DNA from: Schmidtea polychroa
Lineage: Eukaryota
DNA: 64,000 nt
NCBI GenBank assembly: GCA_044892525.1
Contig: CM097885.1
Location: 2,792,001-2,856,000, forward strand
Reading direction: 5' to 3'
This document shows positions 29,700-63,206 of this stretch, one piece after another. The translations under genes and the position numbers were made by a program. The number at the start of each line of letters is the position of its first letter. Position 1 is the stretch's first letter. The notes under the pieces are model-generated. The model was not told the origin of the DNA, made no database searches, and worked only from the letters and a program-made list of their open reading frames with translations.

Positions 29700-31037
29700 C
29701 CCCACTGAATTTATTTTATTATTATTTTAAAAAATATTATTTTTCAAGGTCAAATTTTTTTCTTTAAAAACAGGAGCCCGCGGGGACAAAGACATTTTTT
29801 TCCCAAGGTCATTTAAACAAAGACCATGACTCATTCAAGGTCATTCTCAAGGTCGTATGACTCATTCAAGGTCATTCTCAAGGCCGAATGACTCATTCAA
29901 GGTCATTCTCAAGGTCGAATGACTCATTCAAGGTCATATTATTATTTAAAAAAATATTATTATTTTTTTTTCAAGGTCAAATTTTTTTTTCTTTAAAAAC
30001 AGGAGCCCGCGGGGACAAAGACAATTTTTCCATGGTTCCCGCCAATGGAATTAATTTAACGATGACTTATTTTGAAGCCCACTACAAGACCTTTCGAATG
30101 AGGTATAGACATCCTTACTATCATTATTATTGGTAAAGATATTATTATTTTTTCAAAATATTATTTTTCAAGGTCAAATTTTTTTTTTTAAAAACAGGAG
30201 CCCGCGGGGACAAAGACATTTTTTTTCAAGGTCATTTAAACAAAGACCATGACTCTTTCAAGGTCATTCTCAAGGTCGTATGACTCATTCAGGGTCATTC
30301 TCAAGGTCGCATGACTCATTCAAGGTCATTCTCAAGGCCGAATGACTCATTCAAGGTCATTCTCAAGGTCGAATGACTCATTCAAGGTCATTCTCAAGGT
30401 CGTATGACTCATTCAAGGTCATATTATTATTTAAAAAAAATTATTATTTTTTTTTCAAGGTCAAATTTTTTTCTTTAAAAACAGGAGCCCGCGGGGACAA
30501 AGACATTTTTTTTTCAAGGTCATTTTTTTTCAAGGTCATTTTTTTCAAGGTCATTTTTTTTTCAAGGTCAAATTTTTTTTTCTTTAAAAACAGGAGCCCG
30601 CGGGGACAAAGACAATTTTTCCATAGTTCCTGCCAATGGAATTAATTAAACGATGACTTATTTTGAAGCCCACTACAAGACCTTTCGAATGAGGTATAGA
30701 CATCCTTACTACCATTATTATTGGTAAAGATATTATTATTTTTTCAAAATATTATTTTTCAAGGTCAAATTTTTTTCTTTAAAAACAGGAGCCCGCGGGG
30801 ACAAAGACATTTTTTTTTCAAGGTCATTTTTTTCAAGGTCATTTTTTAAGGTCATTTTTTTTCAAGGTCAAATTTTTTTTTCAAGGTCGAATTTTTTTTT
30901 CAAGGTAATTTTTTAAAATTTATATTTACAGAGTTCCCGCCAACGAAAATTATTCAACGATAGCTCATTTTAAAGCCCAATTCAAAACCTTTCGTATCAG
31001 CCATATATCTTATTATTAATATTATTATTTCTAAAGA

Positions 31038-31116
<79 letters not shown>

Positions 31117-31420
31117 CTATGTACTCTGAGTTTATCCGACAAAATATTCTGTCCCCCTATGGGTAATGCTCACAAAGGTAATGGTAAAAAGGGTACTACT
31201 CGCATTCAACATGTCTCAAACGGTATAATATAATTTTTATTAAATTTAGACCAACTTAAATCAATAAATGGTAGGACAAAAATATATTACGTTGCGGTAT
31301 TTTAAAATTTAAATATATTTTAAAAACTTATTTTGACGCTAAAGTTGACTTATTTAACAAAGACACAATTATTGCACATGCTTTGCATAAATATTATTAT
31401 TATTTATTATTATTATTATT
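29700..31420. repeat. Polinton subterminal repeat region: GGAGCCCGCGGGGACAAAGAC units, 31-bp TGACTCATTCAAGGTCATTCTCAAGGTCGTA arrays, (ATT)n and a ~90-bp CCGACAAAATATTCTGTCCCCCTATGGG repeat
   Basis: Directly visible; the ~90-bp unit recurs inverted at ~40525-40600. Confidence 0.85.
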
Positions 31421-31676
31421 TTTATTATTATTTGCAAATTTCTAATTATTATTTTAGAAGTTTCATTATTATTATTATTTACTTAAATATTCATAAAACT
31501 TAATTTCTACGTCAATTACATGATTTTCAACATTTTCATGATTAAACATAAAATAATAATATTTAAAAAATAATAATAATATTTAACAAATAATATTTTA
31601 AACATAAAATAATAATAATAATATTTAACAAATAATTAAAATAGTCAACAAATAAAAATCATACAGTATACATTTA

Positions 31677-32061
31677 TTAACCATCAAATTTTTTATACAA
31701 CAACCATGCCAAACAGTGTTGACCACATGTTTGAGTCAATGGATTTTGAAACATAGTTTTATTATATACAATAGGTTTCCCAATTGTTTGAAGTTTTGAT
31801 ATCAACAAAGCCGGGTAATAAAAACCCATAGGATCGAATACGAATATATTACTAGGTTTCACATATATAGCTATCCAATGTTCTCCACCAAGATGAGACG
31901 AATGAGTATTGACAATTATGGCTTGATTATTGCTCAAATAAGGAATTTTATCGAGAGGAAAAACTCCTACAAATTCATTTCCTAATATTTGTTTTCCAAT
32001 TCGATTAACCTGAACAGAACTACTTTAATAAAATTAAACATTATCAAAAAACTTACTCCAT
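31677..32061 (-). CDS. Adenain-like cysteine maturation protease (start in a 5-nt micro-exon; putative 34-nt intron 32023-32056)
   Basis: FVGVFPLD, IVNT..S..GGEHWIAIY, FDPMG, Q...TQTCGQHCL (H-D-Q-C catalytic set); ATGGA|GTAAGT..AAAG|T restores MDSSVQVN. Confidence 0.88.
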
Positions 32062-32089
32062 GACAACTTTTTTGTGTTTCTGTATACAT

Positions 32090-33313
32090 TTATACTAGCA
32101 CGGTTCTATTTGCAGTAATTTGAACTTCATTTTCAAATACTCCATATATTATAACATGTACCGGTTCTGTAATGGCCTTTGCAAACTTAATATTCAGTCG
32201 TAAATTCCCGTTTTGTGGTAGTTGACTCTGATTTAAATCAAAATCGAGAGCTAAAACAAATGTGAAAAATGGGTATTTGCTTTTAAATTCTTCTAGAGTT
32301 ATTCTACAATTCAAGTTTTTATCTAAATAACCAAGATTTCTAACAATATTCTGCATATATGTCGCACAGTAATTATCGCTTTCGAAATCTTGAGTATATT
32401 TTTCTCTATAATCAGTATTTTTCGACAAAGTCAATGAAGTAACACCAAAATTTTTGAAAATTGAGCTGGAAGCAGTATAAGATCCATTATATTGCGTTTC
32501 ACTTTGAAATGTTACCAGAATAAAATTAGGCATTCTTCTATCACCAAATATTTGTTCTTTATAGAATGATGAAGCACCTTTAGCAATAGCGAATTGTACA
32601 ATTTCCTTTGTTTTTAAAGGATAAATTGCATGTTTTGAATTAAGACCTAATTGGTGACCCGCTAATACTGAGGGGTCTACTCGAACTCTTCTCACCAATA
32701 ATTTTGCATCAACTAATTGACATATTGGTGCACCAGTTGCACTAGTAAGAGGTAATGCAGAATCAGACCTTTTCAGTCTAATATGTACATTAACCCCCGG
32801 TAGTAAATATTTCGGTTGATCCATAAAATCGATTTGTAATGATGAGCACATGGTGAAAACCTTTGAGCCTTTAACCCACTTTTTTCTTTCATCATCTGCT
32901 GCTGCATAACCCATGGGAGTAAGACATGTATTTTTAGTATCGAAATTGTAATTTAAAATAGTTTCTATCAAAGCCTTGTGAATGAATGTATTATTTCCGC
33001 CCTCAATCTTGATATTATTAAATCCCAACACTGCATCTTTAAAAAGAGTATGAAACATGAAATTGTTCGGTATTACATCAGCATTGGCATCCAAAACTTT
33101 TCTATCTTTATCTACAACCTTGATCTGAACAGTCAATAACGTATCGTTCAAATCTAAATATTCAGTTTGCGAACCATTAATATAAAACTCGATATCATTT
33201 CTACTATCGGTAATTGAATTCATAGGAAAAACTTCCTCAAATGCCCCAAATTCTATTACAGCCTGGGGCGATGGTCTATCAAATATACATAATTCAGATT
33301 TACCACAAATCAT
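32090..33313 (-). CDS. Polinton major capsid protein (double jelly roll, PY/hexon-like)
   Basis: 407 aa; KSELCIF..P.PQ, IEFYI.G...YLDL, QPKYLLPGV.V.I.L.R, FDL......GNLRL.I.FA. Confidence 0.9.
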   Translation of the reverse strand: MICGKSELCIFDRPSPQAVIEFGAFEEVFPMNSITDSRNDIEFYINGSQTEYLDLNDTLLTVQIKVVDKDRKVLDANADVIPNNFMFHTLFKDAVLGFNNIKIEGGNNTFIHKALIETILNYNFDTKNTCLTPMGYAAADDERKKWVKGSKVFTMCSSLQIDFMDQPKYLLPGVNVHIRLKRSDSALPLTSATGAPICQLVDAKLLVRRVRVDPSVLAGHQLGLNSKHAIYPLKTKEIVQFAIAKGASSFYKEQIFGDRRMPNFILVTFQSETQYNGSYTASSSIFKNFGVTSLTLSKNTDYREKYTQDFESDNYCATYMQNIVRNLGYLDKNLNCRITLEEFKSKYPFFTFVLALDFDLNQSQLPQNGNLRLNIKFAKAITEPVHVIIYGVFENEVQITANRTVLV

Positions 33314-33672
33314 TTTGCAAATATAGTTCCATGTCCTTTCATTCGTTTGTTTATACGTGATATTCCATGTCTTTTACGCTTTGGAGCTGGAGCTGGAGGC
33401 GTATCTTTTTGAAACATACCTGCAACCCCAGGTAAAACTTTCCCTAATTCAGCTAAAGCATTTGTTTTTAGAGATGGTAATATTTTCTGTTCATTCATAA
33501 TAACATCTTTTGCAGTTTTCATACCAAAACTACCAATACGTTTAAGAATAGGCAATGCAAATCTACCAATTGTTCTCAACCATCCCGATCCGTACTGTTT
33601 ACCAATAAAATATGGTAATTCACCGCCAGATTGGCTACCACTATACATACTAATAATATCAGAATTAGCCAT
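33310..33672 (-). CDS. Small basic virion core protein (pVI/pVII-like)
   Basis: QSGG and QYGSG protease-site-like motifs followed by amphipathic WLRTIGRFALPILKRIG; basic C-terminus; lies between mCP and MCP. Confidence 0.7.
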   Translation of the reverse strand: MANSDIISMYSGSQSGGELPYFIGKQYGSGWLRTIGRFALPILKRIGSFGMKTAKDVIMNEQKILPSLKTNALAELGKVLPGVAGMFQKDTPPAPAPKRKRHGISRINKRMKGHGTIFAK

Positions 33673-34708
33673 TTATTTTACGAAAATGTAATGTCAAATG
33701 AGTTTTTGAACCTTTTGGAAAGTTTATAAGTTTTCCACTATCATCACAAATATTTATTTCTATATTGTTTATACATGAACTTGCTATTGGTAAATACATG
33801 GGATTATCGATATTTATATTGACAACTTCATCATGTTCATATTTTCCAATCCATACCGATTTCAAAAGAGGAACACTGGAATCACCAACAATTATGGGTT
33901 CGATAATGTTAGTATATATGAACATTTGTTGATGATGTTCTAGTATTCTTGGTTTGTGTATACCAATCGATTTTTCTCTATATTTTTGCTTATCTAATCC
34001 AAGTGAATTTGCCAAATTTTTATCAAATGTAACTTCGCAAATATCCTCATTCAAACTGAAGGTAAACATCAAATCTTTCACAATTTCCAAATTTTTAAAT
34101 ATGTGTGAACAATTGAACTTTAAATATTTAAGTAAATCATCAAGTTTATCAATATATAATTCATCAGCAAAGGTAAATGATTCTTCAACTTCATCATTAT
34201 ACGACACAGATATTTTGATTTCTTCTTTCATTACACTGTTTGCTTCAAATAGATTAAAACGTAATAAATACTCGGTCTCTGTAACAATATTTTTCAACTT
34301 ATTGCAACCCATTCGTTTGGCATCTTCAATTTTTTCGAATGTTATTGTAAATGGTTTAAAATCACAACTGATATTTAATCCATCCTTGTAAAACATATAG
34401 CAATGCGAATCTAATATTTGATTCGGAATATGATATGTTTTATCATAATTACTAATAACAAAGATACCGCTACATGTTTTCACAATATTCCTTCTGAAAT
34501 CAATCTTACAATGACTATAAAATGGGAATGTGTTGTACACGAATGTAAAATCTTGCAGTGCAACTTCCCAGTCACCATTTAAAGAAATCGGATTTTGGAT
34601 ATTGACCATAAATTTACTGGCTTGATTGTCTGGATGAATTAATGGGCAACTATTGCTCGGTAAAATAGTATAAAAATTCACTTTACTAGGTCTTTTGCTG
34701 ATATCCAT
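33665..34708 (-). CDS. Minor capsid protein (penton-like, PX); in frame with the upstream integrase
   Basis: FYTILPSNS..HPDNQASKF..I.L.GDWEVAL; FIYTNIIEP.IVGD..VPLL; Y.P.....INNIEI.I.D..G..I.F..G.....LHF. Confidence 0.85.
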   Translation of the reverse strand: MDISKRPSKVNFYTILPSNSCPLIHPDNQASKFMVNIQNPISLNGDWEVALQDFTFVYNTFPFYSHCKIDFRRNIVKTCSGIFVISNYDKTYHIPNQILDSHCYMFYKDGLNISCDFKPFTITFEKIEDAKRMGCNKLKNIVTETEYLLRFNLFEANSVMKEEIKISVSYNDEVEESFTFADELYIDKLDDLLKYLKFNCSHIFKNLEIVKDLMFTFSLNEDICEVTFDKNLANSLGLDKQKYREKSIGIHKPRILEHHQQMFIYTNIIEPIIVGDSSVPLLKSVWIGKYEHDEVVNINIDNPMYLPIASSCINNIEINICDDSGKLINFPKGSKTHLTLHFRKING

Positions 34709-34709
34709 G

Positions 34710-35275
34710 ACGGGTTTATCCTTACCGACCTTTTTAGTTTTCAATATTTTTTGAATTCTAAATACTTTTGGGGGAGGAATGACTTGTAATTCCTGCTCAT
34801 AAAATTTCCCTTGTACAATATTATTATCATTGTCTTTGATGACATACATTACAGGATTCTGTTTAGTATTTATTTTTGAAATTACAAAGACTTCATCACT
34901 CCAATTTGTATCAAAATGTTTAATAAATGGTGATGCACTAATTTTACTAATTCTAACATGGTCACCGACTTTATATTTAGGTTTTGCAATTTTTACAGAT
35001 TTCTTAGAATAAAATGTTTTTGATGTAATATCAACAGGTCTCAATCCATTCAGTCCTCGATGTGATGAATGATTATAACTTGTTATTATTTTCGGTAAAG
35101 CATTTACCCATTTTTTATTACCTTGATGCACGAACAATTTCTTTAATCTATCTCTCAATGTTCGATTAAATCTTTCAACATGGGCAGCTTTGTATTGAGA
35201 ATGTACCGAGTAGTGATTTATTTTCAGTTTATCGAGGATTTGCTTAACTTTGCTATTGTAGAATTCTTTACCTAA

Positions 35276-35370
<95 letters not shown>

Positions 35371-35758
35371 CTAAATCTGTTTACAAGTTATTAGGATGTC
35401 CATCTTTAAATAAAATATTAATTGCCTTGGACATTTCTTCTGCAGATTTTGCCTTGACTGGTATTGCTCGTGCAAACCTGCTGTATACATTAATACATGT
35501 TAAAATATATTTATTTCCATTGTTAATTTTCGAATAAGGTATCATCTCCATCAAATCCATTTGCCATAAATCGTCAATACCAAATGTTTTATATGCTCTT
35601 GTTGGAAATCTTTTCCGCATTGGTTTGTTCAAACTGTACGCAAGCTGATCTGATAACCACTTCTGGGTTTCTTTTTTCGAATTCGGAACTCTTTTCTCTA
35701 ATTTTGCCACTCCACCGAAACCGGCTTCGTCTTCTGGGTTCGTCCAAATCTTCTCCAT
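34710..35758 (-). pseudogene. Retroviral-like (c-INT) integrase with a 99-nt microsatellite intron (35272-35370), a nonsense codon at 35381-35383 and a truncated chromodomain
   Basis: WQMDL, L*TDLG|KEFYN, KAAHVERFNRTL, YNHS.H, KYKVGDHVRISK, NWSDEVF, GKFYEQELQ. Confidence 0.9.
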
Positions 35759-35819
35759 TACAACAAGAAGATTTAAAATTAAATTTAATGTCGGGCAATG
35801 AAGGATTAGCACCCATTGT

Positions 35820-36347
35820 TTATGACTGTGTAACTCCACCTAATAATGATAATGCCAGAGGTATCAATGCACCAATAAATCCACCTTGTTGTTTATCTAT
35901 AATTTTCCTCATTTGCTTACGATTTTTATTATTTACTAAAGATAACAATGCTTTCCTATGTTTGCTCAATAAATGCTTTTTTGATTTACTGATTTTAATT
36001 TTGCCTTTGACTACTTTAAGTATAATATTGAGTAAATCATCGACAACGAAATTTGGGAATGATTGCAATATATTCATTCTTTTCATACTCGGGGCCTTTA
36101 ACAATGCATTAAGAAATGGAAAACTGCGGTGATTTTTAACTACTTTTTTACTGGTTTTACTGGTTTTACGGGTTTTACGTTTAGGTTTAGGATTTTTCGA
36201 AATAAGATTCATTGCAGAGAAATTTTCAGTTACAAGTTTTTTAGATGGTGTATAACTAGTTGTTGGTGGAACTTTTGGAACTTTAATACTCTTTCTAATA
36301 CTTTTTCTTAATTTCCTAATATTTTTCACCCTTGCTTTTAGAAACAT
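35820..36347 (-). CDS. Basic virion core protein with adenovirus pX-like C-terminus
   Basis: Lys-rich; ends QQGG/FIGALIPLALSLLGG, resembling adenoviral pX GG/FLPALIP. Confidence 0.7.
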   Translation of the reverse strand: MFLKARVKNIRKLRKSIRKSIKVPKVPPTTSYTPSKKLVTENFSAMNLISKNPKPKRKTRKTSKTSKKVVKNHRSFPFLNALLKAPSMKRMNILQSFPNFVVDDLLNIILKVVKGKIKISKSKKHLLSKHRKALLSLVNNKNRKQMRKIIDKQQGGFIGALIPLALSLLGGVTQS

Positions 36348-36365
36348 TATTATTCATAGAGGTTT

Positions 36366-36992
36366 TCAACTTTGTTTATAAACCATGGCACCTTTTGGGT
36401 TGAAAATATCGGTTTTTACTCGTAAATCATCGGGACATTGTTGTGTGAAATCAAGAAATATATATCCATGAGGTATTTTTGTAGCATCTTGAAATGCACT
36501 GATAAGAAAATTACGATTGTTAGGGTATGCTTGACGTGCAAGAAAATCAATCACTGTTGCATCTCTAGGATTCTTGAAAATAACTAAATATTGTACATTT
36601 AAATTACGTGTTCGATGTGCCCCACCTTGATGAAATAGATTTTGTGTTATGAAAATAACTGTTACACCGACATGTCTGCTGATCTTTGTAAATAAATTAT
36701 TAAAATCTTTTTCTTTATTAGCTTCTTGATACAGATCATCGATAATAATGACATCACCTTTCTTTAATCGGCTGGACCAGTTTTTATCGAATCCCTTTAC
36801 TATTTTCATGTTTTTTAATTTACAGAAACTTGATTGAGTTAATCCATGTTCTTCATCAGCACCCTTATGCCAATAAATCCTGTTGAATTTTGATTTGAAT
36901 AAATTTGATTTTAGTAATTTACAAACAAATAATGTTTTTCCACTACCACTCGGACCAACGATTTGGTATACTGCATCATTTCTTAATTCCAT
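36366..36992 (-). CDS. A32/FtsK-HerA family genome-packaging ATPase
   Basis: Walker A GPSGSGKT, Walker B IIIDD, SRH, ITQN, R..N..YLV.FKNPRD. Confidence 0.92.
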   Translation of the reverse strand: MELRNDAVYQIVGPSGSGKTLFVCKLLKSNLFKSKFNRIYWHKGADEEHGLTQSSFCKLKNMKIVKGFDKNWSSRLKKGDVIIIDDLYQEANKEKDFNNLFTKISRHVGVTVIFITQNLFHQGGAHRTRNLNVQYLVIFKNPRDATVIDFLARQAYPNNRNFLISAFQDATKIPHGYIFLDFTQQCPDDLRVKTDIFNPKGAMVYKQS

Positions 36993-37097
36993 TTCAAAAA
37001 TTTTATAAATATATATATGTATTTGTTTATATTCAATGATTTAATGAACTCGTGCTCAATTTGTATATAAAGACAAATTTTCATAAATGATTTAATA

Positions 37098-37535
37098 ATG
37101 TTAGCAAATATAAATTATCGAGGAAATTTTGATGTATCGAATATGAGGTTCCCACCAGGGAAACCCCAGCAAATTATCGATAGAAGCGGGAAATATCCGA
37201 TAATATTTTTCAAGACTGGTAAATGCAGAATCATGGGATGTAAGAAACCCTTGGATATTAATAAATTACAATATCGAATAAATAATATTATAATCCAATC
37301 AATTACCGTTACTATGGATATGGGACATAGTATCAATCTATATAACATATCGAAAAAATGTGATTGTATGTTTGAACCGGAATTGTTTCCGGCGCTAAGA
37401 CTATTAAAATATAACCCTATATGTGTCAACGTGTTTGCTAGTGGAAAGGTTGTCATGCTGGGGTTGAGAAATTTGGAGTATAGAGAATTTGTTGACAATG
37501 TTCGAAATGAGATAATTTCATTGGTCGATTTCTAA
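37098..37535 (+). CDS. TATA-binding protein (TBP)-like protein
   Basis: Two TBP half-repeats: IIFFKTGKCRIMG and IQSITVT.DMG..INL...FEPELFPAL...VNVFASGKVVMLG. Confidence 0.8.
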   Translation: MLANINYRGNFDVSNMRFPPGKPQQIIDRSGKYPIIFFKTGKCRIMGCKKPLDINKLQYRINNIIIQSITVTMDMGHSINLYNISKKCDCMFEPELFPALRLLKYNPICVNVFASGKVVMLGLRNLEYREFVDNVRNEIISLVDF

Positions 37536-37606
37536 TTGGTTAATTTATAATTGGTTATTGATTGATTTAAACAAACGGTTTGTGTTTAGAATTCATTTAT
37601 TTCACT

Positions 37607-38010
37607 ATGTACAAAATACCAAGCGCAGCGAATTTAATGAAAGAAATAGATGATTATGGTAAATTTTTATTTTTTGTTTACAAATTTAAATATTATATTT
37701 TTCAGAAGAATATGCTGCAGTCATGCTAAAGAAGTTAGCATTCTATTATCCAGAAATCAATGCAGTAGTATACAACAAGCCTGCAGAATTAATCCCCGAT
37801 TTGGTGTTCAATGCGACGGGGATAAGGATGTTAGAGATTTTCCATCAATTTATGTGGGATGTGAAGATAAATCGAACAATTAAACATGTGGATCCAGAAT
37901 ATTTATGTTACAATAGCTGTTCCTGCTGCAAAGCTAGATATCAGCGATATGTAGAATGGGTTTTGGTTAAAACTCTTCGGGATTTCCACCATATCAAGAA
38001 TGCATTTTGA
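37607..38010 (+). CDS. Hypothetical protein, 2 exons (intron 37659-37705), Cys cluster
   Basis: GT-AG intron joins MYKIPSAANLMKEIDDY in frame to EEYAAVMLKK..; AATAAA follows the stop. Confidence 0.6.
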
Positions 38011-38372
38011 ATGTTTTTAACAAATAAATGTTATTTAGTTTTCGTTATTTTGTTTTTGATATTTTATATATTTTGATAATAATAATAATAGTAAAAATAT
38101 TAATAATAATGAAACATATTAATAATAAATCTGAAAATAGAACATGTAATAATTAAAACACATAAATAATAAATCTGTAAATAGAACATATAATAATTAA
38201 AACACATAAATAATAAATCTGTAAATAGAACATATAACAAAACATGTGACAATGCAACATCAATGCATTTTGAATGCAATTTAAACAAAGACATGCTATA
38301 ATCTGATTGGTTGATAGGCATGAGTCAAAGGTATAAAAACCCTGTAACATTTAAATTTATTCATTATTCACG

Positions 38373-38783
38373 ATGACCAAGAAAATTTCAAGCACCGAAA
38401 AACCTAAAGAAATGGTACAACCATTTCAAATGTTCCACAACTACAAAATGTATTTTTTGAAAGAAGAAATCAATATGAAATTGGTTGCACCAGTCAAGCT
38501 AATTCCAACTAAATTTCAATTCTTATCCGGCACGCTTTCAATGATTGATGTCAAAACTATTGATGATGTTTTTAAACGGATAGATTCGAATCTATCGTGT
38601 AATCAACATGCATGGTTCAACAATAGATATGCAAGATTTTATGATGCTTTTGATGAAATCAGTTTCAAAGAAAATGAAAATTGGTATATAACAATTGCAA
38701 TCCAGGGATATAAAGTTGATAATAATGATGTATATTCTCCTATTTGGAAAATTATGTCTGCTAGACTTTCACAAATATTTTAA
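38373..38783 (+). CDS. Hypothetical 136-aa protein, possibly an OB-fold ssDNA-binding protein
   Basis: ORF with upstream CCAAT/TATA and downstream AATAAA; beta-rich aromatic C-terminus WYITIAIQG..YSPIWKI. The fold is inference. Confidence 0.5.
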   Translation: MTKKISSTEKPKEMVQPFQMFHNYKMYFLKEEINMKLVAPVKLIPTKFQFLSGTLSMIDVKTIDDVFKRIDSNLSCNQHAWFNNRYARFYDAFDEISFKENENWYITIAIQGYKVDNNDVYSPIWKIMSARLSQIF

Positions 38784-38910
38784 TGTTATATTTAATAAAT
38801 GTATCAGTCAGATTTGTTTTTTCTCTTTATTAATTGCAACATAAATTCAAATGACATGCAAATTTAACAAAGAAAATCTATAAACAAACTTATAATATAG
38901 TTTTAAAGTG

Positions 38911-39287
38911 ATGAAAATGACTGCAGAAAAAGGTTAACATGATTAATTAATTACCGAATTATTTATTATTTAGAATTTTTAATCAACTTTTTGTTGGAAA
39001 AGTTAGCAGAAATAGCTGGTGTGAAAATTGAGGACATATTATCTATTACAAATGCCTTAAATATCGGCTGGATAGTTGAGAGTCAAGATACAGGATTTGA
39101 TGATCAGGAAGAAGAAACTCAAGAAACTGATACTCAAGAAATTGATGAGGAAATATATGAACCTATAGATGAACCTATAGAGGAGCCTAAAGATGAACCT
39201 AAAGATAATATTACGAATGATTGTATTGATCATGTCGTTGAAAATATAATGAAATGCGGAGATGACGACTGCGAATGTGTTAATTAA
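38911..39287 (+). CDS. Acidic hypothetical protein, 2 exons (intron 38933-38973)
   Basis: MKMTAEK E|FLINFLLEK in-frame splice; E/D-rich EPID repeats; AATAAA overlaps the stop. Confidence 0.55.
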
Positions 39288-39364
39288 TAAATCTTAGTTA
39301 GTTAGTGTTTGTAAATTTATTTAAAATTTTATTTAAAAATGAAACAAAATAACTATATTAATTT

Positions 39365-39879
39365 TTATTTAAAAAATCGCGATAAAGCATGCAAAATAGC
39401 AACACCTGTTGCAAGTTTTATATAGTTTTTAAATTTCATTTTCTGTTCATCTATTTCCTTCGCATTTCTGGCGAGTTGATTCAGTACGCCCCATCCGCCA
39501 TTGGCTTCAATCCATGGTTGAAACTTTGACTTGATTATCTAGAAAATATATATTAATAAAATATAGATTATAAAAGTATTACTTCTTGAGACCACTGATA
39601 ATAATGTTCAGAGTCCCATAAACTTCTTTCGATTATGATCTTCATATAAGCGAACCCTACTAGTATTCGGGTCCACTTCATCTCATCATCGCATAGACAG
39701 TTAAAAATCCTATGAAAATAGAATTTTTTCGTTTCGAGGCAATCGCAATTGAGCATATCTTCATAATCAATATGATTTCCTTCTATAATCTTTTCGGTCC
39801 GATCGACCAGGAAACTGAGGCTTTCCATAATCTTCTTGTTGATAAGTTCGCTTAAAAGATTTTCCATAAAATGAGACAT
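39365..39879 (-). CDS. Bcl-2 family protein, 2 exons (44-nt intron 39539-39582)
   Basis: BH1-like DEMKWTRILVGFAY in exon 1; spliced exon 2 IIKSKFQPWIEANGGW (BH2) and hydrophobic tail YIKLATGVAILHALSRFFK*. Confidence 0.82.
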
Positions 39880-39984
39880 CTCTACAATAATTTAAAATAT
39901 GATGTTTTATTTATACTAATACCGTATGATTTTGATTGGTTGATAGACTATAAATGTAAAAGAAAGGTTTTGATTTGATACACC

Positions 39985-40485
39985 ATGAAAACTATATTCA
40001 TATTGCTAATTATTATAACGAGTGTGTGCTCACACAATACAACAATAACAGTGGAGTCTTTTAATAAATCAATATGTGTTTGTCCGAATACCGCCAAGTT
40101 GATGGATATTTTATATATCCTCGATAAACCAAAATGGTCAAAGCATCCAGGAAAAAGAATATCTCAAAGATTGGAGAATTTAGAAAACAGTTATGAACTA
40201 TCATTTGCATATATACAAAATATAAAAATTAAATTGATTGATCATATTGAAGTTTTCAATAACTCTATTGTTGAAAATAAGAAGAATATGAAAATTATTG
40301 ATAAGAAGCATGATTATTTGTTAAAAAAGATTGAATTATTATTAAGAGAAATTCAAACAATCAAAGGATCAATAGAATATCTGAAAATCAATTCAACGTT
40401 ACCAATTTCAAACAATAATGCTGCGAATAGTAGTACATCAATATTAGGTTTACCTTTGTTAATTTTACATTATTTTTTTGTTTAA
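39985..40485 (+). CDS. Secreted or GPI-anchored coiled-coil glycoprotein
   Basis: Signal-like MKTIFILLIIITSVCS, several N-x-S/T sequons, heptad-rich middle, small-residue stretch plus hydrophobic end NAANSSTSILGLPLLILHYFFV. Confidence 0.6.
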   Translation: MKTIFILLIIITSVCSHNTTITVESFNKSICVCPNTAKLMDILYILDKPKWSKHPGKRISQRLENLENSYELSFAYIQNIKIKLIDHIEVFNNSIVENKKNMKIIDKKHDYLLKKIELLLREIQTIKGSIEYLKINSTLPISNNNAANSSTSILGLPLLILHYFFV

Positions 40486-40647
40486 ATAAATGTATGTTTT
40501 GTTGATTTGTTTAATAATACCCTTGTGAGTTGTTGAGGGTGAGCAGTACCCTTTTGAGCATTACCCATAGGGGGAGAAAATATTTTGTCGGATAAACTCG
40601 GGGCAGTACCCTTGCGAGCAATACCCAATAATAATAATAATAATAAC

Positions 40648-40734
<87 letters not shown>

Positions 40735-40869
40735 TTAAGTCTTACCTGATTGGGTGAATGATAAATCACCCGCAAATTTCTTCATATAATTAAAGTCTTA
40801 CCTGATTGGGTGAATGATAAATCACCCGCAAATTTCTTCATAAAATTTGCTATAAATTTGCTATAAATT

Positions 40870-41439
40870 AGTGTCTGACTAAAAAATTAATAACCTTTAT
40901 ACTACTAATGATAAAAATTATTTCTATGGCTCAAAAGATTTGTCTTCGTCGGGGCTTCAAAATGAACTATAAAATGTTAAAATACTTTGAGATTTAGACT
41001 ACGTTTTGGGCTGACGAAAAGTAGGACTCCGCCAGCACAGATAATAATATTTTTGAAAAATAATAATAATTTTTTCATCAATCAGTGTCTGACTAAAAAA
41101 TTATTTTTATGGTTCAAAAGATAGATCTCCGTTTGGGCTTCAAAATGAACTATAAATTTTTAAAATATTTTAAGTTTCAGATTATGGTTTGGGGTCACGA
41201 AAAGTAGGACTCCGCGAGCACAGTTAATAATATTTTTGAAAAATAATAATAATTTTTTATGAGTCATCGGATGAGTCATTGTCTTTGTTCTAGACGAGTG
41301 ATGAGTCATCGGATGACTCATTGTCTTTGTTCTCAAGTCGACCTTGAAAAAAAAATTTTAAAAAATTTTTTCCTGCCGGGGGGGGGGGGGGGTACTGTGC
41401 TCGCGGAGTCCAGTTTTCCCGGTGCCCAAACCACCTACT
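40870..41439 (-). repeat. Polinton right terminal region (duplicated ~190-bp unit, TGA(G/C)TCA repeats, G-run, terminus)
   Basis: Minus strand reads AGTAGGTGG..GGACTCCGCGAGCACAGTACCCCCC..GGAAAAAATTTT..TCAAGGTCG, the same layout as 24663. Confidence 0.7.
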
Positions 41440-42724
41440 TGTATATATAATATCCATAAAATATTAATATTTTTCAAAATCACTGAACCATAAGATCCCT
41501 CCAACAAAAAAATCACAATTGAGCAATGCTGCGAGAAAACTTATATGTATCAAATTTGATTCCGGCCAAAGCGTAAAAAAAATTGCTGCAGATCTCGTTA
41601 TGAACTATAAAACTGTTTATAGTATTATTAGCATTTACAAGACGACAGGAAGGATTGATAAAATGGAAGATAGAGGGTGCAAGTCCAAAAAATTGAGCGA
41701 AGAGCATTTAGTTTTTCTAAAAGAAAAAATTTCCGATGATTGTTCTACTCCGTTCAGAGGTATGAAAAGAGGTTTGAGTGAGTCTATGAATGTTAACGTA
41801 TCGTTGGCCACAATTCATAGGTCAATCAAAGACTTTAATTTTTCTTTTAAACGAGTAGCCTTAATTCCCGCTGCCCGCAACACTGCGGAAGCTATTGAGC
41901 GCAGGTATGAGTATGCCAATGAATATTTGGCATTAAACGAGGACCATGTCTTTTTCCTTGATGAAAGCGGTTTCAATTGCTCGATGAGATTGGGATATGG
42001 ACGAAGCGAAGTAGGGTCGCCTGCTCGCAAAGAAGTGAGAAGTATACGAAGTAAAAACTATTCAGTGTGCTCAGCAATCAGCAAAATGTAGATTTTGAAT
42101 TTTAAAGTTGTAGAAGGTGGATACAATGCAGAGATGTTTACAAATTTTGTCGCCCAATTTATAGGAAATCTACGATCGAAAGGAATATCGACAGGTACGA
42201 TTATAATGGATAATTGTACAATACATAAAAGTGTTGGCGTACGCGATTTGATCAACAATTCTGGATTTACGTTACGCTTTTTACCCTCTAATTCGCCGCA
42301 ATTAAATCCGATTGAAGAGTGTTTCTCGAAATGGAAATCAATTGTCAAATCGGCTAACGTTCTAAATGTAATCGAGTTGAAAAACGCTATTGAAATGGGA
42401 CACAATTCGATAACCACGGAGGATTGTATCGGATTTTTCAACGACACGAGAAGGTTTGCATTAAAGGCGGTAAGAAGAGAAGAATTCTGATTAAAAGTTT
42501 TAACTACCAATTTTTACTCTATCATGATTTCATTTAAAGTGTATATAATATTTTATTACCCATAAAAATTCTGAATTCAATTTAAAACAGTTCTGATTTC
42601 TATTAAAGAAATTCTGACTTCAATTGAAAAAAATTCTGATTTCATTTGAAAAAATTCTGATTTCATTTGAAAAAATTCTGAATTCATTTGAAAAAAATCT
42701 GATTTCAATTGAAAAAACCCTGTA
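41440..42724 (+). mobile_element. Tc1/IS630 element, left end replaced by the Polinton terminus
   Basis: Subterminal AAATTCTGATTTCA(A/T)TTGAA repeats at 42566-42716 ending CCCTG+TA. Confidence 0.7.
41519..42490 (+). pseudogene. Tc1/IS630-family DD34E transposase with one in-frame stop (42089-42091)
   Basis: HTH N-terminus; FFLDESGF, IMDNCTIH, LPSNSPQLNPIEE (34 residues between D and E). Confidence 0.9.
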
Positions 42725-45700
42725 TTATATTTGAACATTTAGCTAATGAAAAAGTGAATAAATTTATGAAATGTTACATTATTTAATATTAAATCATTTC
42801 AGTAGCTCTTAATAAAATATAACAAATTAAGTGAAGGTTTCAATGCCTTACGCCTTAGGGATTCATGCCATTTTGTATTTCATTGCAACCTTCTGTGGAT
42901 CTCAATTTGCTAATTCTGTCATTTTTATTGTTGACGCACAAAGATATAAATTATTTTCAGGTATTTCTTTTTCATTTATTTATCTTTTCCTATTGCGCTT
43001 ATGTGAAAATACGGAAAGATAAATTGCCTAAAGGTTCCTGATTAGATATTAGTTTGTGTGTATGTGAAACATTTTACATATTTTATATAATATATTTCTA
43101 TTTATTATTATATTAAATAAAATCAAAGACAGAAGGCAGATTTACTAATTGATAAGCGCAACTAAATATATTGCATAACATCACATATATATTTTGACCG
43201 TTTAGCAATCCCCTTCACGCTAGAAATCGTATTAATAACAACTAAATGAAAATAAGACAATTTTTAATAAAATCTTTTTTTTGGAAATATAAACATTTCT
43301 GTAAAAATGATCGAGTAAAGGAGTTGATTAAATGTGTTATTGAATTAGTCAAGTAGTATATAATGAGGACTCCAGGACACTTTCAAGGTCATGGAATATC
43401 AAGATCAAATATAGGTCAATTGAATCATTTATTATTATTATTATTATTTTATTTTTTTTTTTAAATTAACATTTTATTTAATTACTTCTTTTTAATTTTT
43501 TCTTTATAATTTTATTAATTAATTATTTTATGATGTTATATTTTAATTACTTACTTTAGTTAATTTTTAATTTATTACATTTAATTAATTAATTTGTTTT
43601 TTAATATTTTGTTTTAATTACTAACGTTATTTAATTATTATTATTATTATTTATTTTATTTATTTATTTTTTTTTTAATTTTACATTTACATTATATTCT
43701 AACAAGAACGTAAATTATAACAATAATATTTCAATTTGAATAAAATTTTAATTAGTAATTATTCAATTCGAATAAAATATGAATAAAATCCTAAGAAAAT
43801 TACGTTAACTGTATGAAAAATACAAATTTATCGTAAAAACATATGTGTATTACACACAACATACGAGACGTAATTTTCTTAGGATTTTATTCATATAATA
43901 TATAGATAAAATTTAATTTTCTATAAAATGGATTGATTAGAAATTATGTATCTTGTTTTGCGTGTAATACACACATGTTTTATGATAAATTTGTATTTAT
44001 TATACGTTAACGTAATTTCCTTGGATATTTATTCATATATTATATAGATAAAATTTAATTTTCTATAAAATGGATTGATCTAGAGTTTAAAATGTTGTAT
44101 TATTTTATTACTTTGTTGCAATATTTTTATAATCTTATAACAATTTGCTTAAATATCTTACATCTGGTGAAATATTTCCGAAATATGTTATTACTTTGTT
44201 GTAATTTACTGAAAGACTTCACAATTTATTACAATATTCTTTTTAATTTGTTGTCCGTCTTCGAAATAATGTATTGATTTGTCCCAATTAACATCATTAT
44301 TTTATTACTTTGTTGCAATATTTTTATTATTTTAGTTACAATTTGATAAATATTTTACAACTTTGTTGAAATTTTCTGAAATATGTTACTACTTTGTTGT
44401 AATATTTTCTAATCTTGTTACAATTTGCTTAAATATTTTACAACTGTTGAAAATTTATCTGAAATATGTTATTACTTTGTTACAATTTTATGAAAACGTT
44501 ATTACTGTTTTGCAATTTGATGAAAAATGATATTACTTTGTGGGTTCATCACATTATTTTTTATTAAATTATTATGAAAATGTTAAATAAGTCAACTTTA
44601 GCATCAAAATGTGTTTTAAAATATATTGAACTTTTAAAATACTGCAACGTAATGCATTTATTTTTCCTACCCCTTCCTTGATTTTGATTGGTCAGAATTT
44701 AATCATGTGTAATATATAAGCAGTAACTTTTCAAATGTTTGTCATTTAAACTTTTAATTTAACTTATATAAGTGAATAATTTTTTATTCTCTATCTAATA
44801 TTAATGATTATTTTCTTTTAGTGAACGGATGCAGTTTATATAAATTTTGTATTGCCGAAAGTCATGAAGATGTGGAGAACTGTAAATCAGTTACTCTACC
44901 TTATCGGGTTACATATGTCCGGAATGTCTCATTATATCACCAGGTAGGTGGTTAATGTTTGTACGACAACACGGACACCATCTTAGAAGATTCGAAGAAA
45001 CGAAGAGCAGGATGATCACTAAAAGTAATACTCTTTCTACTATTAACAATTATTAATTTTTTATAGTACAATCGAAAATGAACACATCATACGATCCTAA
45101 GCAGATTAAAGAATATGTTACAAGTTATGTTATTTAAGTTGTTTAATATTAATTATAAATATAGTTAGACCGTACTTGATTTATCCAAACTTCGCATGTA
45201 CCAATTTCAATATAAAGAACTACAGAGTTATAAAGAAGAATTCAATTGTCAAATTAATGTCGTAGCTGGTGACACAGATTCCTTCTTTTTAAAGTGTAAA
45301 AATGTAGATTTACGCTTACAACTATATCCAAAAATGATTGAAGATGGCCTCCTAGATACTTCAAATTATCCAGTGACCGATCCGTTGTTCTCTGATAAAA
45401 TCTGTTCTGTAATCGGGAAAGTTAAGGATGAGAATAAAGGAAATCAATATAAAGAATGGGTGTTTCTTCGACTTAAGTGCTACTCACTCCAAGGCGATAA
45501 AAACACTCTAAAAGCCAAAGGAATAAGACTTACAAATTCTAATATTACACATGAAGCCTATAAAAAAGTGTATACTGATGGTGGAACAGTGAGCATCCCA
45601 CAAAAAAGAATAGGAAGTGTCAATCATCAGTTGTATACTTTCATGACAGAAAAACGAGCTCTCCAATGTTTGGACGATAAAAGGTATTGGTACAATTGTA

Positions 45701-46369
45701 ATGAAAGTTATGCCTACGGTCACTATAAGATTCACCAAATGCATATTGCAACTGCTATGTCTAGAAATGAATGCAAATCGAAACAAGCACTTTAACAATT
45801 AAATTTATGTGAATAATAAAATATATATTGTGAATAATTTGTCTTCGTTAATTAAAATATGTTTTATCATTTAATAATTCATTTGTCCAATTATTTTAGA
45901 TAATTAGTTTCAAGTAAGAAATATTATTTTCGTGTTTATTTTATTTATTTATTTATTTTTTCCGGTTTATCTAAAATTACATCATCGTTTTATTTTATAA
46001 TAAATTAAATAATTTCTAATTAAAATTTTATTCGAATTGAATAATTACTAATTAAAATTTTATTCAAATTGAAATATTATTGTTATAATTTACGTTCTTG
46101 TTAGAATATAATGTAAATGTAAAATTAAAAAAAAAATAAATAAATAAATAAATAAAATAAATAATAATAATAATAATTAAATAACGTTAGTAATTAAAAC
46201 AAAATATTAAAAAACAAATTAATTAATTAAATGTAATAAATTAAAAATTAAATAAAGTAAGTAATTAAAAATATAACATCATAAAATAATTAATTAATAA
46301 AATTAAAGAGAAAAAAAAATAAATAAAATAAATAAATAGAAGTAATTAAATAAAATTAAAATTAAAAAA

Positions 46370-46402
<33 letters not shown>

Positions 46403-62848: not shown

Positions 62849-63206
62849 TCCCGCGCGTGTTACTTTGAAATAATACTTTGAAAGAAAATATTGAAAATTT
62901 AAAAAATAATAATAATAATATTTATGCAAAGCATGTGCAATAATTATGTCTTTGTTAAATAAGTCAACTTTAGCGTCAAAATAAGTTTTTGAAATATATT
63001 TAAATTTTAAAATACCGCAACGTAATATATTTTTGTCATACCCTTTCATTGATTTAAGTTGGTCAGAATTTAATAATAAGTATATTATGCCCTTTAAGAC
63101 ATGTTGAATGTGAGTAGTACACTTTTGACCATTACCCATATGAGCAATACCCATAGGGGGACAGAATATTTTTTCGGATAAACTCTGAGTATATATAATA
63201 ATAATC

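What the first reader, a model, noticed from the sequence alone, without database searches (positions are those of the whole stretch)
31677..40485. Polinton/adintovirus with a divergent host-takeover module (TBP, Bcl-2, surface protein) and no polymerase
Seen: seven tightly packed minus-strand virion/integration genes head-to-head (~105-bp gap, 36993-37097) with six small accessory genes, several spliced and most followed by AATAAA. No pPolB motifs lie between the flanking repeat regions. Known: canonical Polintons encode pPolB, INT, ATPase, PRO, MCP and mCP; TBP and Bcl-2 homologs are typical of large DNA viruses (E1B-19K in adenovirus). Inference: a virus-like lineage equipped to control transcription and apoptosis, either helper-dependent or having lost pPolB after insertion.
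Basis: partly seen in the sequence, partly recalled or inferred. Interest (0 to 1): 0.85.

Follow-up and report, generated by a model that had tools for sequence, protein, structure and literature searches.

The report
Defective copy of polymerase-encoding Polinton
This is one damaged copy of a very abundant virus-like DNA element (a Polinton/Maverick) in an animal genome; it has lost its DNA polymerase gene by deletion, while its relatives in the same genome still carry it together with the same TATA-binding-protein-like and Bcl-2-like genes.

Summary
Window 31.5-40.5 kb carries seven tightly packed minus-strand genes: adenain-like protease, double-jelly-roll capsid protein, p120, putative penton, rve integrase, basic p175 and A32-type ATPase. 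They lie head-to-head with six small genes: TBP-like, p95, p136, an acidic protein, Bcl-2-like and a membrane protein. No pPolB lies between the flanking repeats.

The reading as a polymerase-less lineage does not hold. The genome holds thousands of candidate copies. Sister copies with 97% identical capsid protein or at least 99% identical TBP carry a roughly 1,400-codon pPolB between the left terminal repeat and the protease gene, inside 95-97% identical terminal inverted repeats. At least 32 further places show pPolB, spacer and protease contiguous.

The window's deletion junction is unique among 40 scored copies. Its integrase has an in-frame stop and a 32-nt deletion, and its two ends are not cognate. 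It is a dead, mosaic copy.

TBP-like and p136 genes are conserved partners of Polinton core genes in metagenome contigs. Bcl-2-like, p95 and p166 were seen only in this genome's families. TBP and Bcl2 homologues in adintovirus-like elements are already in print (Starrett et al. 2021). Verdict: a new member of a known kind, of modest interest.

The parts
29717..31009 (.). Left terminal-repeat arrays. They hold 31-nt and 16-19-nt tandem units and duplicated blocks of about 590 bp. The outer boundary is uncertain.
   Evidence: Tandem repeats and internal duplications at 97.8%. The stretch is 72-82% similar to the TIR of a sister copy on C3, whose own TIR pairs are shown. It is not an inverted copy of the window's right outer repeat.
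31010..31183 (.). Inner TIR unit with an (ATT)35 microsatellite. Its inverted partner is at 40544-40733.
   Evidence: 83% over 190 nt. The same unit of about 190 bp forms tandem arrays at the ends of sister copies.
31184..31540 (.). Junction stretch where sister copies carry pPolB plus a spacer of about 2 kb. It is specific to this copy.
   Evidence: 0 of 39 other scored copies match query positions 1-351. All begin at window 31541/31542 or later. A sister copy has 6.6 kb here, including a 1,405-codon pPolB frame.
31677..32089 (-). Adenain-like cysteine protease. Exon 1 is 32057-32089, a 47-nt GT-AG intron is 32010-32056, and exon 2 is 31677-32009.
   Evidence: Exon 2 hits Pfam Peptidase_C5 at 1.4e-6, 28.6 bits against a cut-off of 21.3. 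The splice is read from the sequence and is not confirmed by RNA.
32090..33313 (-). Major capsid protein with a double jelly-roll fold, 407 aa, frame intact.
   Evidence: AlphaFold model pLDDT 78, pTM 0.80. Foldseek hits iridovirus, PBCV-1, mavirus and Sputnik MCPs at E 1e-15 to 1e-12. 102 scored copies are 97-100% identical and all have open frames. dN/dS is 0.048.
33310..33672 (-). p120, a small Gly/Lys-rich protein of unknown role. Its position suggests a virion core or membrane-active protein (inference).
   Evidence: ORF. It is conserved in this position in all sister copies, at 63% in the second family, and in 5 of 80 metagenome loci. No Pfam hit.
33665..34708 (-). Putative minor capsid (penton) protein, 347 aa. 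The start is taken from sister copies.
   Evidence: It holds a conserved position between the integrase and p120 in all copies and in 10 of 80 metagenome loci. The start ATG is seen in the alignment. No Pfam hit and the fold was not tested.
34709..35758 (-). rve integrase with a C-terminal chromodomain, broken in this copy. There is an in-frame stop at 35381-35383. A 32-nt deletion near 34717 shifts the 3' end into the penton frame. A GT-AG intron at 35272-35370 holds the (AAT)n microsatellite.
   Evidence: Translation. Pfam rve and rve_3 hits. Sister copies have open 376-codon frames with rve above cut-off and a Chromo hit.
35820..36347 (-). p175, a lysine-rich basic protein. It may be a DNA-condensing core protein (inference).
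   Evidence: ORF. Conserved at 79-94% in sister copies, 55% in the second family, and present in 7 of 80 metagenome loci. No Pfam hit.
36366..36992 (-). Genome-packaging ATPase of the FtsK/A32 type.
   Evidence: Pfam Pox_A32 3.6e-7, 30.3 bits against a cut-off of 22.8. 70-76% identical homologues lie next to TBP-like genes in metagenome loci.
36993..37097 (.). Divergent promoter gap with TATA-like boxes facing both ways.
   Evidence: Sequence. TATATAAAG lies about 30 nt upstream of the TBP-like ATG.
37098..37535 (+). Compact TBP-like protein, 145 aa. It has a complete C-terminal TBP repeat and a helix-less four-strand N-terminal half.
   Evidence: Pfam TBP 2.3e-15. A profile hits solved TBPs at 1.5e-19. 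Model pLDDT 94.8. Foldseek TMq is 0.72-0.76 to TBP cores. 150 scored copies are 98-100% identical.
37607..38010 (+). p95 gene, function unknown. Exon 1 is 37607-37658, a 47-nt intron is 37659-37705, and exon 2 is 37706-38010.
   Evidence: ORF. The splice is read from the sequence. The gene is present in 2 sister copies (94% and 49% identity) and in 0 of 80 metagenome loci.
38373..38783 (+). p136, function unknown, a conserved companion of the TBP-like gene.
   Evidence: Present in all full sister copies and, at 34% identity, in the second family. Present in 20 of 80 metagenome loci beside TBP. No Pfam or Atlas lead.
38911..39287 (+). Predicted acidic protein. Exon 1 is 38911-38932, a 41-nt intron follows, and exon 2 is 38974-39287. 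This is the least certain gene model.
   Evidence: Read from the sequence. No Pfam hit for exon 2.
39365..39879 (-). Bcl-2-like gene. Exon 1 is 39583-39879, a 44-nt intron is 39539-39582, and exon 2 is 39365-39538. It has BH1-like and BH2-like (WIEANGGW) motifs and a hydrophobic tail.
   Evidence: Pfam Bcl-2 on exon 1 is only E 0.034. Exon 1 and exon 2 align back-to-back to residues 9-107 and 108-126 of the second family's 152-aa ORF. That ORF passes the Pfam Bcl-2 cut-off at 32.5 against 31.4 bits.
39985..40485 (+). p166, a predicted membrane or secreted glycoprotein. It has an N-terminal signal-like segment, N-x-S/T sites, a heptad-rich middle and a hydrophobic C-terminus.
   Evidence: ORF and sequence. 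Present at 99% and 90% in two sister copies and in 0 of 80 metagenome loci. No Atlas lead.
40520..41440 (.). Right terminal repeat. It holds the inner unit with (AAT)36, a 56-nt repeat x2 and a 183-nt repeat x1.9. The element terminus is at 41440.
   Evidence: Homology with a 95% identical sister copy runs to 41440, after which the flanks differ. The terminal 20-mer has no inverted partner in the window.

Best explanation
The region is one defective, mosaic, integrated copy of a very high-copy Polinton/Maverick (adintovirus-like) family in an AT-rich animal genome.

The intact family plan is a 15-18 kb element bounded by 0.7-1.5 kb terminal inverted repeats built from tandem sub-repeats and (ATT)n microsatellites. 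On one strand it carries pPolB (about 1,400 codons), a spacer of about 2 kb, adenain-like protease, double-jelly-roll capsid protein, p120, putative penton, rve/chromodomain integrase, basic p175 and the packaging ATPase. Divergently from the ATPase it carries the TBP-like gene, p136 and, in some subfamilies, p95, an acidic protein, a Bcl-2-like protein and a membrane protein.

The window copy has several defects:
- It has lost pPolB and the spacer (about 6.3 kb).
- Its integrase carries a premature stop and a 32-nt deletion.
- Its left outer repeat does not match its right one.

It therefore cannot replicate or integrate on its own and is very unlikely to be mobilised.

Inferred for the family, not shown:
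- Protein-primed replication from the terminal repeats by pPolB, integration by the rve integrase, and packaging into capsids.
- The compact TBP-like protein binds the TATA boxes that sit 25-45 nt upstream of the element's own genes and recruits host RNA polymerase II.
- The Bcl-2-like protein delays apoptosis.
For: Gene identities.
- Pfam hits for protease, integrase, ATPase and TBP.
- MCP fold matches double-jelly-roll capsid proteins at E 1e-15 to 1e-12.
- TBP fold matches TBP cores at TMq 0.72-0.76.

Copy number. First-look candidates and scored copies were:

| Query | First-look candidates | Scored copies |
|---|---|---|
| MCP | 5,003 | 102 |
| TBP-like | 4,165 | 150 |
| pPolB (PF03175) | 8,821 | 91 |

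pPolB in cis in sister copies.
- Two copies picked by MCP identity hold pPolB between the left TIR and the protease gene. Their TIR pairs are 97% and 90-95% identical.
- 3 of 4 copies picked by at least 99% TBP identity have pPolB about 1.9 kb beyond the protease gene on the same strand. One has an open 1,405-codon frame and two have interrupted frames.
- At least 32 of 39 other scored places hold the pPolB 5' end, spacer and protease contiguous (the query favours such places).

Unique junction. 0 of 39 other scored copies share window 31190-31540.

Lesions in the window copy are shown. The ends are non-cognate.

Mosaic origin. The capsid side is closest to one subfamily, at 92% nt to the C3/C4 copies. 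The TBP side, 34342-41440, is 94.8% to another. The protease region is only 85-86% to copies that share the window's TBP.

Active, selected lineage. MCP dN/dS is 0.048 over 66 pairs of 12 copies. Eleven of these are 98-100% identical in DNA.

Module conservation.
- A second 16.5-kb family has TBP (54% identity), p136 (34%), a Bcl-2 ORF above the Pfam cut-off, and pPolB.
- 38 of 80 metagenome TBP loci hold at least one Polinton core gene. Among loci of 4 kb or more the figure is 19 of 25.
Against: - Not all sister copies have pPolB. Of the 9 examined in detail, 5 have it next to the protease gene and 2 lack it: C3, which has 4.2 kb of unrelated DNA there, and C2B. The other 2 are truncated or rearranged.
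- The pPolBs beside nearly identical capsid modules are only about 55-60% identical to one another. Modules are therefore exchanged often, and 'sister copy' is defined per module, not per element.
- The samples were picked from the best-scoring hits, not at random. The share of pPolB-less copies in the whole family is unknown.
- No target-site duplication or cognate left terminus was found, so the copy's outer left boundary is uncertain.
- No transcription, splicing, virion or DNA-binding evidence was obtained. The roles given to the TBP-like and Bcl-2-like proteins are inference from homology and from TATA boxes seen in the sequence.
Confidence: 0.85

Rival explanations
1. A polymerase-less, helper-dependent sub-lineage. 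On this view, elements of the window's structure are a non-autonomous family that keeps capsid, integrase and host-control genes and is replicated in trans by the pPolB of full-length relatives in the same genome.
For: Three pPolB-less copies were seen: the window, C3 and C2B. Full-length helpers with related terminal-repeat units are abundant. Most ORFs of the window copy are still open.
Against: - The window's junction is unique among the 40 scored copies.
- The three pPolB-less copies have three different structures.
- The window's integrase is broken and its ends are non-cognate, so it lacks what trans-mobilisation would need.
- Copies sharing the window's TBP at 99% or more mostly carry pPolB, 3 of 4.
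Confidence: 0.07
2. A rearrangement product of two neighbouring or nested elements, or an assembly chimera. On this view it is not a single element that suffered an internal deletion: the left repeat block and the gene block come from different insertions.
For: - The left and right outer repeats are not inverted copies of each other.
- The left inner unit 31038-31412 pairs better (92.6%) with 62900-63275 than with the right end.
- The capsid and TBP halves are closest to different subfamilies.
- Other TIR-like units and a deleted pPolB remnant of a third family lie at 44-63 kb.
Against: Gene order and spacing from protease to p166 are the same as in sister copies, with no break. This rival also overlaps the main explanation, since both make the copy defective and pPolB loss secondary.
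Confidence: 0.08

Closest known systems
Polintons/Mavericks of animals, proposed family Adintoviridae (Starrett et al. 2021, PMC8502044; Krupovic, Bamford and Koonin 2014, PMC4028283, seen in a search listing only)
   Same: - pPolB in the family, rve integrase, adenain-like protease, double-jelly-roll MCP, A32/FtsK-type ATPase and terminal inverted repeats.
- Integrated multi-copy state.
- Accessory genes that copy host regulators. The paper states that adintovirus Bcl2 and IAP homologues were observed, and it lists 'TBP' among gene labels of MELD viruses.
   Different: - This copy lacks pPolB and has a broken integrase.
- Copy number in this genome is very high, with thousands of candidates.
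- The terminal repeats are built of tandem arrays and microsatellites.
- The TBP-like gene is a compact 145-aa form that is conserved next to the ATPase across many related metagenome contigs. I did not find this described in the searched library.
- Alpha or Beta adintovirus class was not tested.
Mavirus virophage and polinton-like viruses
   Same: Same capsid fold: the mavirus MCP is hit at E about 5e-13. Same morphogenesis set of ATPase and protease. Mavirus also has an rve integrase and pPolB (recalled).
   Different: No sign of dependence on a giant virus. The host is an animal, and the genes have spliceosomal-type introns and AATAAA signals. The TBP-like and Bcl-2-like genes are not part of the mavirus set (recalled).
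Adenoviruses
   Same: Adenain-type protease (Peptidase_C5). Protein-primed PolB in the family. A Bcl-2-like anti-apoptotic gene, analogous to E1B-19K (recalled). TATA-driven promoters.
   Different: This family has an integrase and an integrated lifestyle, and its capsid protein is much smaller. Adenoviruses use host TBP and do not encode one (recalled).
Internally deleted (non-autonomous) copies of DNA transposons
   Same: The replication or transposition enzyme gene has been lost by internal deletion, while the ends and other parts remain.
   Different: There is no evidence that this deletion derivative was amplified. Its ends are mismatched.

Membership tests
Polinton/Maverick (adintovirus-like element) | [quoted passage not shown] | tested here: not met
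   There is no pPolB similarity between 31 and 41.4 kb of the window. The feature is met at family level, because sister copies carry pPolB inside their TIRs. The window copy is therefore a deletion derivative of a member, not a full member.
Polinton/Maverick (adintovirus-like element) | Retrovirus-like (rve) integrase | tested here: met
   Pfam rve 2e-5 and rve_3 0.0017 on the two parts. The frame is broken in this copy. A sister ORF of 376 aa passes the rve cut-off and has a Chromo hit.
Polinton/Maverick (adintovirus-like element) | Double-jelly-roll major capsid protein | tested here: met
   Model pLDDT 78. Foldseek hits PBCV-1, iridovirus, mavirus and Sputnik MCPs at E 1e-15 to 1e-12 with probability 1.00.
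Polinton/Maverick (adintovirus-like element) | Single-jelly-roll minor capsid (penton) protein | not tested
   The 347-aa ORF 33665-34708 holds the expected position and is conserved. It has no Pfam hit, and no fold prediction was run.
Polinton/Maverick (adintovirus-like element) | FtsK/A32-type packaging ATPase and adenain-like maturation protease | tested here: met
   Pox_A32 at 30.3 bits against a cut-off of 22.8. Peptidase_C5 at 28.6 bits against a cut-off of 21.3.
Polinton/Maverick (adintovirus-like element) | Matching terminal inverted repeats and a short target-site duplication | tested here: inconclusive
   Only a 190-nt inner unit is inverted, at 83%. The outer repeats do not match, and the right terminal 20-mer has no partner. 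No TSD could be defined. Sister copies have TIRs that are 95-97% identical.
TATA-binding protein (PF00352) | Two tandem TBP repeats forming a saddle | tested here: inconclusive
   The Pfam TBP hit (56.6 bits against 22.9) is carried by the C-terminal repeat. The model (pLDDT 94.8) superposes on whole TBP cores at TMq 0.72-0.76. Its N-terminal half has four strands and no helices. It is a truncated variant of the fold.
TATA-binding protein (PF00352) | Binds TATA DNA and nucleates a pre-initiation complex | not testable with these tools
   Only indirect support exists. The Phe positions of the C-terminal repeat (ELF, NVF) are invariant in 20 homologues. Their identity with the DNA-kinking Phe pairs is recalled, not tested.
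Bcl-2 family (PF00452) | BH1-BH2 helical core recognised by the family profile | tested here: inconclusive
   Window exon 1 scores 15.1 bits against a cut-off of 31.4, E 0.034. Exon 2 alone gives no hit. Both exons align contiguously to a 152-aa ORF of the second family, which scores 32.5 bits, above the cut-off. The WIEANGGW motif is read from the sequence, and naming it BH2 is from recall.

The most novel reading that the evidence does not exclude
A compact 145-160-aa TBP, with a complete C-terminal repeat and a helix-less N-terminal half-saddle, is a conserved near-core gene of a broad clade of animal-type Polintons and usually sits next to the packaging ATPase. It would let a 15-18 kb virus-like element bring its own basal transcription factor, drive its TATA-box genes, and perhaps escape the host regulators that grip the helices of the TBP N-terminal lobe. 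In this genome the lineage added a Bcl-2-like gene and a membrane protein, and it reached thousands of copies under purifying selection on the capsid gene. That pattern suggests recent or ongoing virus-like spread.
Probability: 0.3. Interest if true: 0.6.

Novelty: new member of a known kind. Interest (0 to 1): 0.33.

Why it matters
For this locus the result is sobering. The missing polymerase is a copy-level deletion, so no new polymerase-free virus lineage needs to be invoked.

At family level three points have some value.
- The host genome carries a very large and very young Polinton population. Its capsid gene evolves under strong purifying selection (dN/dS about 0.05). This argues that capsids are used, so the elements behave as viruses and not only as transposons.
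- A compact TBP-like gene and its p136 companion are conserved with the core genes in many environmental contigs. The question of why such a small element encodes a basal transcription factor can therefore be tested by expression, DNA binding and TFIIB binding.
- The copies show frequent exchange of polymerase, capsid and accessory modules. This makes them useful material for studying recombination in this virus class.

Tried and rejected
- RNA evidence. No listed run is on record as RNA. Contigs of four runs guessed to be RNA were laid on 31542-41440. They covered the stretch but gave no joint that skips any predicted intron. Two single contigs in one run carried a T17 loose end, at 35702 and 36322. 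That is too weak to call polyadenylation. Splicing and expression stay untested.
- Spliced Bcl-2 product. A search with exon 1 found only one 103-aa exon-only protein.
- IMG/VR viral contigs. One weak TBP hit at 25% identity, not followed up.
- ESM Atlas for p136 and p166. No usable hit.
- Pfam. Nothing for p120, penton, p175, p95, p136, the acidic protein or p166 beyond chance-level rows.
- pPolB in Pfam. A scan of two long pPolB frames reported only Endonuclease_7 and not DNA_pol_B_2, although genome search scored PF03175 there at 113-120 bits. I relied on BLAST between the polymerases instead.
- Poly-isoleucine insertion in the integrase. I first read the (ATT)n tract this way. I rejected it because sister copies show a 42-nt GT-AG intron at that point.
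- MATH/TRAF ORF at 28776-29360 as an element gene. Rejected, because it gives no hit in any of 42 own-genome loci.
- pPolB remnant at 45110-45792 as this element's polymerase. Rejected for three reasons. It lies beyond the right terminus and a Tc1/mariner. It is 96% identical to a third family's polymerase. It is on the wrong side for the family plan.
- Larger random sample of sister copies. This was not possible.
- Earlier scan notes. None exist for this genome.

Full report
**What is there.** The window is part of a 781-Mb eukaryotic assembly with four chromosome-scale contigs. The region is about 30% G+C.

On the minus strand, ORFs run almost without gaps from 36992 down to 31677:
- Packaging ATPase: Pfam Pox_A32 E 3.6e-7, above cut-off.
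- A lysine-rich 175-aa protein.
- An rve integrase (Pfam rve 2e-5).
- A protein of about 350 aa in the position of the Polinton penton.
- A 120-aa Gly/Lys-rich protein.
- A 407-aa capsid protein.
- A protease whose second exon hits Peptidase_C5 at E 1.4e-6, above cut-off.

The capsid protein was folded with eight homologues (pLDDT 78, pTM 0.80). It matches the double-jelly-roll capsid proteins of an iridovirus, PBCV-1, mavirus and Sputnik at Foldseek E 1e-15 to 1e-12.

Across a 105-bp gap (36993-37097) lie six more genes:
- A 145-aa TBP-like gene: Pfam TBP E 2.3e-15.
- p95.
- p136.
- A predicted acidic protein.
- A Bcl-2-like gene on the minus strand.
- p166, which has a signal-like N-terminus and a hydrophobic C-terminus.

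Short GT-AG introns of 41-99 nt can be read in five genes. AATAAA follows most genes.

**No polymerase in this copy.** tblastn with three pPolB proteins taken from this genome finds nothing between 31 and 41.4 kb. The only window hits are a distant fragment at 107-502 and an internally deleted remnant at 45169-45792. That remnant lies beyond the element's right end and a Tc1/mariner (41468-42513). It belongs to a third Polinton family, with 96% identity to that family's polymerase.

**The family has a polymerase.** The genome is saturated with these elements.

| Query | First-look candidates | Scored copies | Identity or frame |
|---|---|---|---|
| Capsid protein | 5,003 | 102 | 97-100% identical, all with open frames |
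| TBP-like protein | 4,165 | 150 | 98-100% identical |
| PF03175 (pPolB) | 8,821 | 91 | frames up to about 1,480 codons |

I fetched nine sister copies.

Four were picked by capsid identity.
- Two are complete elements in which pPolB lies between the left terminal repeat and the protease gene, on the same strand. Their TIR pairs are 97% and 90-95% identical.
- One (C3) has 4.2 kb of unrelated DNA in place of pPolB.
- One (C2B) is a truncated inverted duplicate with no pPolB within 10.6 kb.

Five were picked by the window's own TBP type.
- Three have pPolB about 1.9 kb beyond the protease gene. One of these has an uninterrupted 1,405-codon frame and two have interrupted frames.
- One is rearranged.
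- One is cut inside the penton gene.

A DNA query spanning the pPolB 5' end, the spacer and the protease gene found both ends contiguous at 32 or more of 39 other scored places. This query favours such places, so the figure is a floor and not a proportion.

A 901-nt query across the window's own junction matched 39 other copies only from window 31541/31542 onward. None shares 31190-31540.

The polymerase-less state is a property of this copy and of a few unrelated others, not of a lineage.

**Other damage and mosaic origin.**
- The integrase frame has an in-frame stop at 35381-35383, just before the catalytic T-D-x-G-x-E-F stretch.
- Compared with three sister copies it lacks 32 nt near 34717. 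This truncates the chromodomain end and runs the frame into the penton gene.
- Sister integrases are open 376-codon frames with rve and Chromo hits.
- The (ATT)n tract inside the integrase is not a coding insertion. In sister copies it is a 42-nt GT-AG intron whose removal gives an unbroken T-D-L-G-K-E-F stretch. In the window the microsatellite has grown it to 99 nt.
- The right terminus is at 41440, where homology with a 94.8% identical copy stops and the flanks differ.
- The terminal 20-mer has no inverted partner anywhere in the window.
- The left and right outer repeats share only a 190-nt unit, at 83%.
- The capsid half is closest to one subfamily (92% to the C3/C4 copies). The half from 34342 to 41440 is closest to another. 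The protease region is only 85-86% identical to copies that share the window's TBP.
- The polymerases next to near-identical capsid modules are only 55-60% identical to one another.

Module exchange between co-resident elements is evidently common, and the window copy is one such mosaic.

**The accessory genes.** A second family in the same genome is 16.5 kb long, with 1.5-kb TIRs that are 95-97% identical.
- Its capsid protein is 76% identical to the window's.
- It also encodes a TBP-like protein (54% identity) and a p136 homologue (34%).
- It has a 152-aa ORF that passes the Pfam Bcl-2 cut-off, at 32.5 against 31.4 bits.

The window's Bcl-2-like gene scores only E 0.034 on exon 1. However, exon 1 aligns to residues 9-107 of that ORF and exon 2 to residues 108-126, back to back. 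This supports both the homology and the predicted 44-nt intron. Exon 2 carries W-I-E-A-N-G-G-W followed by a hydrophobic tail. Calling this BH2 rests on recall.

The TBP-like protein has 108 homologues of 96-232 aa, mostly about 145-160 aa, in public data. Of 80 metagenome loci that encode one:
- 38 also hold at least one Polinton core gene by tblastn. Among loci of 4 kb or more the figure is 19 of 25.
- The ATPase is its neighbour in 23. In 17 the TBP gene is upstream and co-oriented, and in 4 it is divergent as in the window.
- p136 is present in 20.
- Bcl-2-like, p95 and p166 are present in none.

Some of these contigs have capsid proteins only 24-27% identical to the window's, so the TBP-Polinton link is old.

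The TBP model (pLDDT 94.8) superposes on whole TBP cores at TMq 0.72-0.76. Only the C-terminal half is a complete repeat. The N-terminal half has four strands and no helices.

TATA-like boxes lie 25-45 nt upstream of the TBP-like, p136, Bcl-2-like and p166 start codons. The 13-mer GATTGGTTGATAG occurs exactly twice in the window, each time just upstream of such a box.

**How it most likely works.**

Shown:
- Gene content and folds.
- The lesions of this copy.
- The family plan with pPolB in cis.
- Strong purifying selection on the capsid gene. dN/dS is 0.048 over 66 pairs of 12 copies, and eleven of them are 98-100% identical in DNA.

Inferred from what is established for Polintons, adenoviruses and TBP:
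- The family replicates by protein-primed synthesis from its terminal repeats, integrates with the rve integrase and forms capsids.
- The compact TBP binds the element's TATA boxes and recruits host RNA polymerase II.
- The Bcl-2-like protein delays apoptosis.

The window copy itself is inert. It has no polymerase, a broken integrase and mismatched ends. Several of its ORFs remain open.

**Comparison with what is known.** This is a Polinton/Maverick of the animal, adintovirus-like kind.
- Starrett et al. 2021 (PMC8502044; passages and section 3.4 read) state that adintovirus homologues of Bcl2 and IAP were observed. [quoted passage not shown] I could not see the figures or supplements.
- Polintons are reported as abundant, piRNA-silenced elements in planarians (PMC8532177, passages). 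Mavericks are reported as expanded in Dugesia (bioRxiv 10.64898/2025.12.11.693146, passages).
- The genome's size, four-chromosome layout and A+T richness make a planarian host plausible. That is recall, and I did not test it.
- Searches for Polinton or Maverick together with TBP, TATA-binding protein or Bcl-2 found no paper in the held library that describes a conserved TBP gene in animal Polintons.

**Verdict.**
- The polymerase-less-lineage interpretation is refuted. The Polinton identity and the accessory genes are supported.
- The locus is a degraded, mosaic copy of a known kind of element.
- The family-level features deserve a note but are not a new category. They are the compact conserved TBP, the Bcl-2-like gene, the massive recent expansion under selection, and the frequent module exchange.

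Noticed in passing
window 45110-45792 (+), with flanks 44212-46684: An internally deleted pPolB remnant of a third Polinton family. Only the last 208 residues or so remain, 96% identical to an 870-codon pPolB frame elsewhere in the genome. The flanks match that locus at 87-93%, with about 2.9 kb missing.
   Followed up: partly
window 41468-42513 (+): A Tc1/mariner-type transposase (DDE_3, HTH_Tnp_Tc3_2) split over two frames. It is inserted right after the Polinton's right terminus.
   Followed up: no
window 28776-29360 (+) and 55813-56385 (-): Two MATH/TRAF-domain ORFs, 81% identical, in inverted orientation about 26 kb apart. They are absent from the 42 other Polinton loci fetched, so they are not part of the element.
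   Followed up: partly
window 52.1-55.4 kb, 58.2-58.8 kb, 60.6 kb, 62.9-63.6 kb: Further copies of the Polinton terminal-repeat unit of about 190 bp. One of them, 62900-63275, pairs in inverted orientation with 31038-31412 at 92.6%, better than the element's own right end. This suggests more Polinton wreckage or a larger rearrangement in the window.
   Followed up: no
window 38305-38317 and 39934-39946 (+): The exact 13-mer GATTGGTTGATAG, which contains a CCAAT box on the other strand, occurs twice. One copy is just upstream of the TATA box of p136. The other lies in the shared promoter of the Bcl-2-like and p166 genes. 0.08 occurrences are expected by chance.
   Followed up: partly
L031:3198-6698, L023:1964-4573, L013:748-4176 (own genome): The pPolB frames of this genome carry a weak Endonuclease_7 (HNH-like) hit just upstream of the polymerase domain, E 2e-4 to 1.4e-3 and below the cut-off.
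   Followed up: no
own genome, C2:29.97-30.01 Mb and C1:29.80-29.88 Mb: Capsid-gene hits recur every 21-31 kb on one strand. Some copies were therefore multiplied by segmental or tandem duplication and not by transposition.
   Followed up: no
window 38103-38237: A 44-nt tandem repeat (3.1 copies, 92% matches) fills the spacer between p95 and p136.
   Followed up: no
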